A DNA stretch of 5,842 nucleotides from Escherichia coli (GCF_003334405.1 NZ_QOWM01000032.1); one strand, 5' to 3'; positions 2,889-3,835 are shown, numbered from the stretch's first letter. Numbers and translations: made by a program. The notes: a model not told the origin generated them from the sequence alone.

Positions 2889-3323
2889 ATGATGAATAAA
2901 TTTAGTTATGTCAATCGTATGCTTCGGCAAGTTTTTGTTTTTAGTTTTATCACGGCCCCATCAATATCTTTATTTGTTGTTTTTATGTTTTTTTCGTTTA
3001 ATAACTCAATTGCTGGTTCATTTTTAAAAGAGGCCAGGGGGCTTATAACCGATACTCCTTCTGATAAGGTTAACGTCTGTCTTTTCGAAAAGGGCGTACC
3101 ACAGGATATGGAGTTGACAAACTCCACAACTGAACATGTATTAAAAAATAAATGTATAACAACGTTAGTTGATGCTGCTGACTGGCAGGAATCTGTTGAC
3201 GGTTCTATTCGATATTTTTATTGGTCGTCAGTTGTTATTGGCTTTGTGGTCTGGTTTACCTTTAATTTTTGTGCACTGGAAGAACTATTTTATCGTAGAA
3301 ACAGAAAAGGAGACGTTGAATGA
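2889..3323 (+). CDS. Membrane protein with two predicted TM helices and a central ~75-aa loop (candidate exclusion or immunity-type protein), function unknown
   Basis: 144-aa ORF with tandem ATG at 2889 and 2892 and a weak GAAGGG about 11 nt upstream. Hydrophobic segments VFVFSFITAPSISLFVVFMFFSF (N-terminal) and YFYWSSVVIGFVVWFTFNFCAL (C-terminal). Stop TGA at 3321-3323 overlaps the nuclease start ATG 3320-3322 (ATGA coupling). Very low GC (about 27% in a 60-nt sample). Confidence 0.6.
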   Translation: MMNKFSYVNRMLRQVFVFSFITAPSISLFVVFMFFSFNNSIAGSFLKEARGLITDTPSDKVNVCLFEKGVPQDMELTNSTTEHVLKNKCITTLVDAADWQESVDGSIRYFYWSSVVIGFVVWFTFNFCALEELFYRRNRKGDVE

Positions 3324-3835
3324 GGATTTTTTTAAGCGTAATTTTATTCCTGTTTACTGCTTTTCAGTCTGCAAATGCAGGTGGAATACCTGGTGCTTTA
3401 GCAGGAATACTTTCTACATTAAACCAGGAAATCCAGGGGAAAGTTATTCGTGTTCTCGATGGCGATACCATCGAAGTTTTACAGGACAAAAAGCCCGTCA
3501 GGATTCGCCTGGCAAACATCGATGCACCGGAGAAAAAACAGGCTTTCGGGCGCTGGTCAGCAAATCAGCTTAAAGCTCTGCTTGCAGCACAGCCTGTTAC
3601 GGTGACGTACACGCAGACAGACCGCTACGGACGCATTATCGGTCATGTGTTCACGACGAACGGCACGGATGCCAGCCGCTTTATGGTTCAGTCTGGCGCT
3701 GCATGGGTATATGAACGTTACAACGTGGATGAGTCATTACCGGCTCTACAACGGGAAGCGCAGGAACAAAAACGCGGTTTGTGGGTCGATGCAAATCCGG
3801 TTCCACCGTGGGAGTGGCGATACAAACATAACTAA
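3320..3835 (+). CDS. nuc: Secreted/periplasmic thermonuclease, staphylococcal nuclease (SNase) family, plasmid Nuc-like
   Basis: 171-aa ORF. Signal peptide MRIFLSVILFLFTAFQSANA with A-N-A cleavage motif. SNase-like core: VIRVLDGDTIEV, RLANIDAPE (compare SNase R-L-x-x-V/I-D-x-P-E), DRYGR, and C-terminal GLW. ATGA overlap with the upstream membrane-protein gene. TAA stop at 3833-3835. Confidence 0.88.
   Translation: MRIFLSVILFLFTAFQSANAGGIPGALAGILSTLNQEIQGKVIRVLDGDTIEVLQDKKPVRIRLANIDAPEKKQAFGRWSANQLKALLAAQPVTVTYTQTDRYGRIIGHVFTTNGTDASRFMVQSGAAWVYERYNVDESLPALQREAQEQKRGLWVDANPVPPWEWRYKHN

What the first reader, a model, noticed from the sequence alone, without database searches (positions are those of the whole stretch)
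2889..3835. Secreted SNase-family nuclease translationally coupled to a 2-TM membrane protein
The stop codon of the 144-aa membrane protein overlaps the nuclease start (ATGA at 3320-3323), implying co-translation and balanced dosage. The nuclease carries a Sec signal peptide, so both products act at or beyond the inner membrane. The two-gene architecture suggests a nuclease plus anchor/regulator/immunity pair, which is not part of the usual description of plasmid Nuc-type nucleases. The nuclease gene is also internally heterogeneous in composition: the signal-peptide region is about 38% GC and the catalytic region about 55% by hand counts, hinting at a chimeric origin.
Basis: partly seen in the sequence, partly recalled or inferred. 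Interest (0 to 1): 0.6.

Follow-up and report, generated by a model that had tools for sequence, protein, structure and literature searches.

The report
Plasmid nuclease beside TraP-like membrane gene
This is the tail of the conjugation operon of an IncX4 resistance plasmid, where an ordinary exported staphylococcal-type nuclease gene sits next to a small membrane protein gene that is a distant relative of the F-plasmid TraP transfer protein; the two are neighbours in a swappable cassette, not a dedicated nuclease-partner system.

Summary
A 144-aa two-TM ORF (2889-3323) overlaps a 171-aa SNase-family gene (3320-3835) by ATGA. The nuclease has a Sec-type signal peptide and all catalytic residues. 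GC rises from about 35% to 52-54% inside the gene.

The window is 99.9% identical to an IncX4 plasmid, in the stretch taxB-Cag12-trbM-...-nuc-...-topB.

The proposed anchor/regulator/immunity pairing is not supported:
- The membrane protein is a short member of the TraP superfamily (hhalign 95%, E 2.8e-8). In every context examined outside the IncX-type plasmids it lies in or beside conjugative-transfer genes with no SNase nuclease.
- nuc homologues occur in more than 5000 plasmids, and the membrane protein in only 179.
- Typical IncX4, IncX3 and IncX5 carry an unrelated two-TM gene in the same slot. One IncX4 lineage keeps only a 26-codon remnant of it.
- Six of 14 junctions in this operon overlap, so the ATGA is ordinary operon packing.

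The chimeric-origin hint is correct. Compared with typical IncX4, 2888-3427 (membrane gene plus the first 36 nuc codons) is a replaced cassette.

One oddity remains: in IncX-type plasmids at least three unrelated small membrane-protein genes overlap nuc by ATGA.

Verdict: ordinary, with low interest.

The parts
2889..3323 (+). Gene for a 144-aa inner-membrane protein ('B'). It has two TM helices (about residues 15-37 and 110-132) around a roughly 70-aa periplasmic loop with a Cys64/Cys89 beta-hairpin. It is a short TraP-superfamily protein. The true start may be the second ATG at 2892 (MNKF..., as in homologues).
   Evidence: ORF. AF2 pLDDT 84.7 with helices 2-38 and 96-141 and strands 60-66 and 89-95. 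Family alignment with near-invariant P24, S40, P57, C64 and C89. Pfam TraP hits 11 of 42 members at E<=0.1, best 5.4e-6. hhalign against F-type TraP gives 95.2%, E 2.8e-8.
3320..3835 (+). nuc: a Sec-exported SNase (thermonuclease) family nuclease, 171-aa precursor.
   Evidence: Pfam SNase 8.6e-24. PDB thermonuclease E 5e-11. D49, R63, D68, E71, Y103 and R105 are invariant across 10 plasmid homologues. Annotated as 'thermonuclease family protein' in 99.9%-identical plasmids.
3320..3379 (+). Signal peptide MRIFLSVILFLFTAFQSANA, with predicted cleavage after ANA. It is the IncI2-type variant of the nuc leader.
   Evidence: Read from the sequence. The same leader type occurs in IncI2 and IncX1-type nuc, and a different leader (..LPATLCAA) in typical IncX4, IncX3 and IncX5.
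3320..3323 (+). ATGA start/stop overlap between B and nuc. An AGGAG Shine-Dalgarno lies at 3308-3312.
   Evidence: The same ATGA junction occurs with unrelated upstream genes in L002 and L030.
2888..3427 (+). Replaced cassette relative to typical IncX4: the B gene plus the first 36 codons of nuc. It has low GC and GC3 of 22-30%.
   Evidence: blastn of the window against L002 gives 95.6% identity up to 2887, nothing for 2888-3427, and 91.8% from 3428.
3428..3835 (+). Conserved SNase core (GC 51.7%, GC3 52%). It is shared at 79-92% nucleotide identity with IncX4, IncX5 and IncI2 plasmids and is mosaic (7-aa KTLPAKI indel).
2823..2886 (+). Conserved intergenic element at the left edge of the cassette. 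It contains a 15-bp hairpin (arms 2827-2841 and 2846-2860, loop TTTA) with no T-run.
   Evidence: RNA fold -32.2 kcal/mol, z -5.27. No terminator-like site. Conserved in IncX5, IncX1-type, L006 and L030 intergenic regions, and partly in IncX3. L029 carries one A-T to G-C compensatory change.

Best explanation
The region is the distal part of the transfer region of an IncX4 plasmid: pilX/virB - taxB - Cag12 lipoprotein - trbM - 85-aa gene - B - nuc - ... - topB. It holds two independent accessory genes.

(1) B is a small inner-membrane protein of the TraP superfamily, with N-in/C-in topology, two TM helices and a disulfide-stapled periplasmic hairpin. By analogy with F TraP it most likely associates with the envelope-spanning type IV secretion/pilus machinery as a non-essential stabiliser.

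(2) Nuc is made as a precursor, exported by Sec and cleaved after ANA. It then acts as a Ca2+-dependent non-specific SNase-type endonuclease in the periplasm or beyond. It needs no immunity protein because it folds only after export, in a compartment without self DNA.

The 4-nt ATGA overlap is ordinary operon compaction. It may give some translational coupling, but nuc also has its own AGGAG.

The adjacency is historical. B plus the nuc leader form a cassette that recombines between plasmid backbones. The anchors are a conserved hairpin-containing intergenic element on the left and the conserved start of the SNase core on the right.

Shown: gene identities, homologies, contexts and breakpoints. 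Inferred: topology, the T4SS association of B, periplasmic activity of Nuc, and the absence of a B-Nuc interaction.
For: Identity and context: 99.9% to IncX4 plasmid NZ_CP070012.1, with the gene order given above.

Nuc: SNase domain and catalytic residues.

B is TraP-like: Pfam TraP hits in 11 of 42 members. hhalign against F TraP gives 88.7% with a single sequence and 95.2%, E 2.8e-8, against a TraP alignment, covering TM1, the loop and the start of TM2. The published TraP topology matches: two TM segments, a periplasmic loop, and not required for F conjugation (PMC7555446).

B without nuc: F-type operons, traF-B-small ORF-trbB. VirB-type operons. An I-type-like operon. Next to a signal-less HNH endonuclease.

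nuc without B: more than 5000 plasmid records for nuc against 179 for B. Stand-alone in IncF and IncK2/Z. An unrelated gene A precedes it in about 1175 records. A remnant of A in L029. A third unrelated gene in L030.

Overlaps are common in the operon: 6 of 14 junctions.

Cassette breakpoints and mosaic nuc.

No internal terminator is predicted. In a typical IncX4 plasmid the pilX operon runs as one transcript through taxB and trbM, and nuc is not among the 18 genes scored essential for transfer (PMC8725589). The primer arms of the unnamed essential genes cds4, cds9 and cds16 are absent from this region.
Against: Within IncX-type plasmids nuc is almost always preceded, with an ATGA overlap, by some small multi-TM protein gene: A, B, A+B, or a third type. 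That recurrence with non-homologous proteins could reflect a functional requirement rather than history.

The B-nuc pair also moves as a unit. It is 85% identical over 2709-3829 in an IncX1-typed plasmid.

The window protein itself does not reach significance against Pfam TraP (E 0.048), it lacks TraP's C-terminal tail, and Foldseek ranks a TraP model only at E 0.5.

No experiment bears directly on B. TraP's own function is poorly defined.
Confidence: 0.7

Rival explanations
1. Functional pair. In IncX-type plasmids the small membrane protein encoded just upstream (B here; A or a third type elsewhere) tethers, positions or gates the exported nuclease at the inner membrane or T4SS. The start/stop overlap would set their stoichiometry.
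For: Three unrelated small membrane-protein genes each overlap nuc by ATGA in IncX-like plasmids. A is found almost only next to nuc, in 1175 records. Each cassette carries its own nuc leader, so each adjacency predates the swap. The B-nuc pair is transferred as a unit to an IncX1-type backbone.
Against: Most of B's diversity lies in operons without any nuclease. nuc is stand-alone in IncF and IncK2/Z, and in IncI2 it follows a 46-nt gap after an unrelated 1-TM protein. An IncX4 lineage keeps nuc with only a 26-codon remnant of A. The mature nuclease core is swapped independently of B, as seen by comparing the window with L032. The many IncX records represent few independent lineages.
Confidence: 0.12
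2. Expression-only coupling. The upstream ORF matters only in cis. Ribosomes finishing B reinitiate at the ATGA, so nuc output follows transfer-operon translation, whatever protein the upstream ORF encodes.
For: The ATGA junction is retained with three unrelated upstream ORFs, and even with the 26-codon remnant of A. No terminator or convincing promoter lies between trbM and nuc. The operon is read as one transcript in a typical IncX4 plasmid (PMC8725589).
Against: nuc has its own strong AGGAG at optimal spacing. nuc is expressed from stand-alone genes in other plasmid groups. The 4-nt overlap is the commonest junction type in compact operons generally and in this one, so its retention needs no special explanation.
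Confidence: 0.1
3. B is an entry- or surface-exclusion-type determinant, or another plasmid-specific envelope factor, rather than a TraP-like stabiliser. That would explain why the slot is so variable.
For: It is a small, variable inner-membrane protein in a transfer operon. The slot shows non-orthologous replacement. The middle of the loop is hypervariable.
Against: Homology to TraP rather than to known exclusion proteins. The juxtamembrane motifs are conserved across F-, VirB- and I-type systems, which fits a generic rather than a plasmid-specific interaction. F-type plasmids carrying B were not shown to lack traS/traT.
Confidence: 0.06
4. Toxin-immunity pair. B would neutralise Nuc to protect the host.
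For: Only the adjacency and overlap. A B homologue also precedes an HNH nuclease.
Against: nuc lacks B in more than 95% of plasmids carrying it. Sec-exported SNase-type enzymes fold only after export and are not known to need immunity proteins (established knowledge of S. aureus Nuc). The HNH partner in L006 has no signal peptide and would be cytoplasmic, on the opposite side from B's loop. PADLOC gives no hit for B.
Confidence: 0.02

Closest known systems
Plasmid nuc genes of the staphylococcal-nuclease family (R64/IncI1 nuc, pCTX-M3/pOXA-48 nuc, RP4 ParB-type; annotated 'thermonuclease family protein')
   Same: Same Pfam domain, the same invariant catalytic and Ca-binding residues, an N-terminal export signal, and location in or near the transfer region of conjugative enterobacterial plasmids. 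R64 counts nuc among its transfer-region genes (PMC6112013).
   Different: This copy is a mosaic: an IncI2-type leader, an IncX5-type middle and an IncX4/IncI2-type C-terminus. It is preceded by a TraP-like gene. The physiological role is unknown for the whole group; the pOXA-48 nuc deletion had no effect on plasmid stability (PMC12365149).
F-plasmid TraP (PF07296, 'conjugal transfer pilus-stabilizing protein')
   Same: Two TM helices flank a periplasmic loop. Shared motifs are AR/VR-x-x-x-x-AP-x-G-x-V-x-x-C ... C-x-x-x-x-D-A-x-D-W/Y-x-x-x-x-D-x-x-I/L, with two conserved Cys. It is encoded inside a T4SS operon. hhalign gives 95.2%, E 2.8e-8.
   Different: It is 144 aa against 196 aa and has no C-terminal cytoplasmic tail. 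It is never found at the traB-trbD position, sitting instead after traF in F-type operons and after trbM, Cag12 or VirB10 in VirB-type operons. The window protein is below Pfam significance. In one F-like plasmid carrying B, the gene at the canonical TraP position is not TraP-like.
Gene 'A': the 102-111-aa two-TM protein upstream of nuc in typical IncX4, IncX3 and IncX5 plasmids
   Same: Same slot, the same ATGA overlap with nuc, the same size class and two TM helices.
   Different: No detectable homology to B (hhalign 0.2%). The loop is very short. A is found almost exclusively next to nuc, whereas B is mostly elsewhere. The two coexist as A-B-nuc in some IncX3 plasmids.

Membership tests
SNase / thermonuclease family (PF00565) | Significant match to the SNase domain profile | tested here: met
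   PF00565 i-Evalue 8.6e-24, residues 61-156, model 1-106 of 107. phmmer against PDB thermonuclease gives E 5.4e-11.
SNase / thermonuclease family (PF00565) | Ca2+-ligand and catalytic residues (S. aureus D21, D40, T41 backbone, R35, E43, R87, Y85) | tested here: met
   D49, D68, A69 (a backbone ligand position), R63, E71, R105 and Y103 align to them. They are invariant in 10 plasmid homologues. The S. aureus residue numbering is from established knowledge.
SNase / thermonuclease family (PF00565) | Ca2+-dependent nuclease activity after export | not testable with these tools
   Needs a DNase assay on periplasmic and culture fractions.
TraP (PF07296) | Match to the Pfam TraP profile at significance | tested here: not met
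   The window protein scores E 0.048. Among 42 family members, 2 reach E<=0.001 and 11 reach E<=0.1.
TraP (PF07296) | Profile-profile homology to bona fide F-type TraP | tested here: met
   hhalign A2 against A4 gives probability 95.2%, E 2.8e-8, over 99 columns. Against the single F TraP sequence it gives 88.7%.
TraP (PF07296) | Two TM segments with a periplasmic loop and both termini cytoplasmic | tested here: met
   AF2 helices 2-38 and 96-141 with a hairpin between them. The basic N- and C-termini are read from the sequence. The literature topology for TraP is given in PMC7555446. The orientation is inferred from the positive-inside rule.
TraP (PF07296) | Position directly after traB in an F-type operon, and a roughly 60-aa C-terminal cytoplasmic tail | tested here: not met
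   B-family genes lie after traF, trbM, Cag12 or VirB10. B ends about 12 residues after TM2.
TraP (PF07296) | Stabilises the pilus / transmembrane transfer complex | not testable with these tools
   Needs deletion and pilus or conjugation assays.
Nuclease toxin-immunity or nuclease-anchor two-gene system | The partner gene co-occurs with the nuclease across lineages | tested here: not met
   B is in 179 plasmid records and nuc in more than 5000. B sits in nuclease-free operons. nuc occurs without B.
Nuclease toxin-immunity or nuclease-anchor two-gene system | Physical interaction between partner and nuclease | not tested
   No multimer prediction tool returns interface scores here. It needs AF-Multimer or biochemistry.

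The most novel reading that the evidence does not exclude
In IncX-type conjugative plasmids the exported SNase nuclease needs a small inner-membrane partner. That role would be filled by any of at least three unrelated protein families (A, the TraP-like B, and a third type), each wired to nuc by an ATGA overlap. The partner would dock or gate the nuclease at the T4SS or envelope, for example to destroy DNA straying into the periplasm during mating. This would be a case of non-orthologous replacement of a functional partner.
Probability: 0.1. Interest if true: 0.55.

Novelty: new member of a known kind. Interest (0 to 1): 0.2.

Why it matters
Mostly as annotation. IncX4 and IncX3 plasmids are major vehicles of mcr-1 and blaNDM, and the genes between taxB and topB are usually left as 'hypothetical protein'.

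This work assigns the 144-aa protein to a small TraP-like family of 69 clusters. The family is spread over F-, VirB- and I-type transfer operons.

It also shows that the slot upstream of nuc is a recombination cassette bounded by a conserved hairpin and by the start of the SNase core. That clarifies how IncX backbones diversify.

It does not reveal a new nuclease-partner mechanism. The biological role of plasmid Nuc enzymes remains open.

Tried and rejected
- **Word-indexed homologue search for B:** gave only close copies, so the exhaustive profile search was needed.
- **NCBIfam, PADLOC and PHROGs:** no hit for B or A.
- **Foldseek of the B model against AFDB50:** only family members were significant, and a TraP model ranked at E 0.5.
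- **A and B as diverged homologues:** rejected (hhalign 0.2%).
- **The L030 upstream protein as a relative of A or B:** rejected.
- **The gene at the TraP position of a B-carrying F-like plasmid as TraP-like:** rejected.
- **Rfam scan of the window:** nothing relevant.
- **Hairpin as an intrinsic terminator:** there is no T-run and none was predicted.
- **Literature searches for an IncX nuclease or partner study:** nothing specific.
- **dN/dS for nuc (window against L032):** invalid, because the two genes differ by indels. Only the B value is used.
- **Fused-chain AF2 run to mimic a multimer:** not done, because the tool returns no interface or PAE data and paired sequences are too few.
- **Holin-like reading of the small membrane proteins:** set aside, because Nuc has its own Sec signal.

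Full report
**What is there.** The window is 99.9% identical over 2700-4000 to E. coli plasmid NZ_CP070012.1, typed IncX4, MOBP, MPF_T. In that record the gene order is virB9-virB10-virB11-taxB-Cag12 lipoprotein-TrbM/KikA-85-aa hypothetical-144-aa hypothetical-thermonuclease-134-aa hypothetical-hypothetical-topB-hha-hns. The sequence ...GTTGAATGAGG... gives the ATGA overlap at 3320-3323, and an AGGAG lies 7 nt upstream of the nuc ATG.

**The nuclease.** It matches Pfam SNase at 8.6e-24 and S. aureus thermonuclease structures at E about 5e-11.
- The alignment places D49, R63, D68, A69 and E71 on SNase D21, R35, D40, T41 and E43.
- Y103 and R105 fall on Y85 and R87.
- All are invariant in ten plasmid homologues.
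- The N-terminus MRIFLSVILFLFTAFQSANA|GG is a textbook Sec/SPase I signal, read from the sequence.

It is also what GenBank already says ('thermonuclease family protein').

**The membrane protein ('B').** Pfam, NCBIfam, PADLOC and PHROGs give nothing significant for it.
- tblastn finds it in 179 plasmid records. About 82 are close copies next to nuc, and 97 are below 60% identity.
- An exhaustive profile search of 1.84 billion representatives finds only 69 clusters, so this is a small family.
- The family alignment shows a conserved TM1 (..SLVTxPA..LF..), a juxtamembrane AR-x-L-x-x-x-AP-x-G-x-V-x-x-C, a hypervariable stretch, then C-x-x-x-x-D-x-x-x-W-x-x-x-x-D-x-x-IR-x-x-Y leading into TM2.
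- AF2 gives pLDDT 84.7, with two long helices and a beta-hairpin carrying the two near-invariant cysteines.
- Scanning every member against Pfam gives TraP (PF07296) for 11 of 42 members at E<=0.1, best 5.4e-6.
- The F-plasmid TraP sequence shows the same motifs by eye.
- hhalign gives 88.7% against F TraP alone and 95.2% (E 2.8e-8, 99 columns) against a TraP alignment.
- Published TraP topology is two TM segments flanking a periplasmic loop. It is described as an accessory protein not required for transfer (PMC7555446 citing Anthony et al. 1996).

B lacks TraP's C-terminal tail and never sits at the traB-trbD position. I therefore call it a TraP-superfamily protein, not a TraP orthologue.

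**Where B lives.** In every context examined B lies in or next to conjugative-transfer genes:

| Context | Loci |
|---|---|
| F-type operons, traF-B-(70-87 aa)-trbB | L007, L008, L011, L018, L020, L027/28 |
| VirB-type, Cag12-B-...-topB | L016 |
| VirB-type, VirB10-B-VirB11 | L023 |
| VirB-type, TrbM-B-adhesin | L026 |
| Beside a TrwC-type relaxase gene, downstream of an SLT gene | L025 |
| I-type-like operon | L012 |
| B overlapping a signal-less HNH endonuclease by 4 nt | L006 |
| Followed by nuc: this IncX4 lineage | window |
| Followed by nuc: an IncX1-typed plasmid | L032 |
| Followed by nuc: a minority IncX3 type | L009 |
| Followed by nuc: a Serratia plasmid | L010 |

**Where nuc lives.**
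- tblastn with Nuc saturates at 5000 plasmid records.
- In IncF and IncK2/Z it is a stand-alone gene.
- In IncI2 it follows an unrelated 217-aa single-TM protein after a 46-nt gap.
- In typical IncX4, IncX3 and IncX5 it is overlapped by a different 102-111-aa two-TM gene, 'A'. A is present in 1175 records and is not homologous to B (hhalign 0.2%).
- Some IncX3 plasmids have A-B-nuc, all overlapping.
- One IncX-like plasmid has a third, unrelated 105-aa membrane protein overlapping nuc.
- One IncX4 lineage retains only a 26-codon remnant of A (MKARVALIAVLSICKILSAIWEGRKQ) before nuc.

**The overlap.** In the 99.9%-identical record, 6 of 14 consecutive junctions overlap (by 4, 8, 14, 17, 4 and 4 nt) and most of the others are gaps of 17 nt or less. 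ATGA is therefore the house style of this operon. No terminator-like site is predicted between 2400 and 4700. For a typical IncX4 plasmid, Cappable-seq and RT-PCR showed one long pilX operon running through taxB and trbM, with no further reliable start site downstream. Transposon mutagenesis scored 18 genes as essential for transfer, and nuc is not among those named (PMC8725589). The deletion-primer arms of the unnamed essential genes cds4, cds9 and cds16 do not occur in this region. That last step is an inference from exact-word searches.

**Chimerism.**
- Against typical IncX4 (L002), identity is 95.6% up to 2887. There is no match for 2888-3427. Identity is 91.8% from 3428.
- The replaced block is B plus the first 36 codons of nuc. 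Its GC3 is 22-30%, against 52% for the SNase core.
- The core is shared at 79-92% with IncI2, IncX5 and IncX4.
- The core is itself mosaic. The leader type, a 7-aa KTLPAKI indel and the C-terminal variants assort independently of each other and of the upstream gene.
- The left boundary coincides with a conserved 64-nt intergenic element holding a 15-bp hairpin (dG -32 kcal/mol, z -5.3).
- That element recurs upstream of different genes in IncX5, IncX1-type and other relatives, and partly in IncX3. L029 carries a compensatory A-T to G-C change in it.

I infer that this element and the conserved start of the SNase core (QGKVIRVLDGDT) act as homology anchors for cassette exchange. That would explain why each membrane gene travels with its own nuc leader.

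**Mechanism, with likelihoods.**
- Most likely (about 0.7): two independent accessory functions. One is a TraP-like envelope protein associated with the T4SS. The other is a Sec-exported Ca2+-dependent nuclease. They are co-transcribed at the end of the transfer operon, and the overlap is compaction plus, at most, mild translational coupling.
- A true membrane-partner role (about 0.12) is kept alive by the recurrence of unrelated small membrane-protein genes overlapping nuc in IncX plasmids.
- Cis-only coupling (about 0.1), an exclusion-type role for B (about 0.06) and immunity (about 0.02) follow.

**Novelty.** The nuclease is already known and annotated. Calling B a TraP-superfamily member, and describing the A/B/third-type cassette slot, are modest annotation-level additions. 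Overall the finding is ordinary and I score it low.

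Noticed in passing
window 2823-2886 (hairpin arms 2827-2841 / 2846-2860): A strongly folding 15-bp hairpin without a T-run (dG -32 kcal/mol, z -5.3) lies in a 64-nt intergenic element. The element is conserved upstream of different genes in IncX5 and IncX1-type plasmids, L006 and L030, and partly in IncX3. L029 shows one compensatory A-T to G-C change. It marks the left recombination boundary of the cassette. Its function (RNA processing, attenuation or a DNA site) is unknown.
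   Followed up: partly
window 4316-4528 (+): An unannotated 70-aa ORF with two hydrophobic segments lies in the 304-nt 'intergenic' gap between the 134-aa and 195-aa genes. tblastn finds translated similarity in 138 plasmids, including IncI2 and the IncX1-type L032, mostly with no annotated feature. It is probably a missed small membrane-protein gene.
   Followed up: partly
window 3851-4255 (+): A 134-aa acidic protein with a CxxC...CxxC zinc-ribbon-like motif lies 15 nt after nuc. It also follows nuc in some IncI2 plasmids (L004). Several GenBank records label it 'exodeoxyribonuclease V subunit beta', which looks like a spurious annotation, since there is no family hit apart from a weak AccD zinc-ribbon match.
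   Followed up: partly
L002 2711-3019; L013 2112-2438; L005 3603-3938; L030 1439-1756: Two further, mutually unrelated small multi-TM proteins overlap the nuc start by ATGA in IncX-type plasmids. 'A' is 102-111 aa and occurs in about 1175 plasmid records, almost always next to nuc. The other is a 105-aa type in L030. Neither has any Pfam, NCBIfam, PADLOC or PHROG match.
   Followed up: partly
L029 1725-1805: In an IncX4 lineage (CP057529.1) gene A is reduced by an internal in-frame deletion to a 26-codon ORF. The remnant still ends in the ATGA overlap with nuc.
   Followed up: yes
L006 3486-4363: In Salmonella plasmid pSA20080453.1 the B homologue (50% identical) overlaps by 4 nt an HNH endonuclease that has no signal peptide. 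The HNH gene occupies the slot where nuc sits in the window. The topB region of this plasmid is 97% identical to the window.
   Followed up: partly
P0033 (282 aa, metagenomic): One family member is a tandem duplication of the whole TraP-like module (TM-loop-TM, twice).
   Followed up: no
L006 2238-3428; L026 4117-4707; L030 1-731; L032 1-825: YadA-like trimeric-autotransporter adhesin genes recur in the same accessory stretch (between the T4SS genes and B/nuc) in several related MPF_T plasmids.
   Followed up: no
L022 5568-6071: In an F-like Citrobacter plasmid that carries B between traF and trbB, the gene at the canonical traP position (after traB) is a 167-aa membrane protein with no TraP similarity. 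B may therefore be that plasmid's only TraP-like gene.
   Followed up: partly
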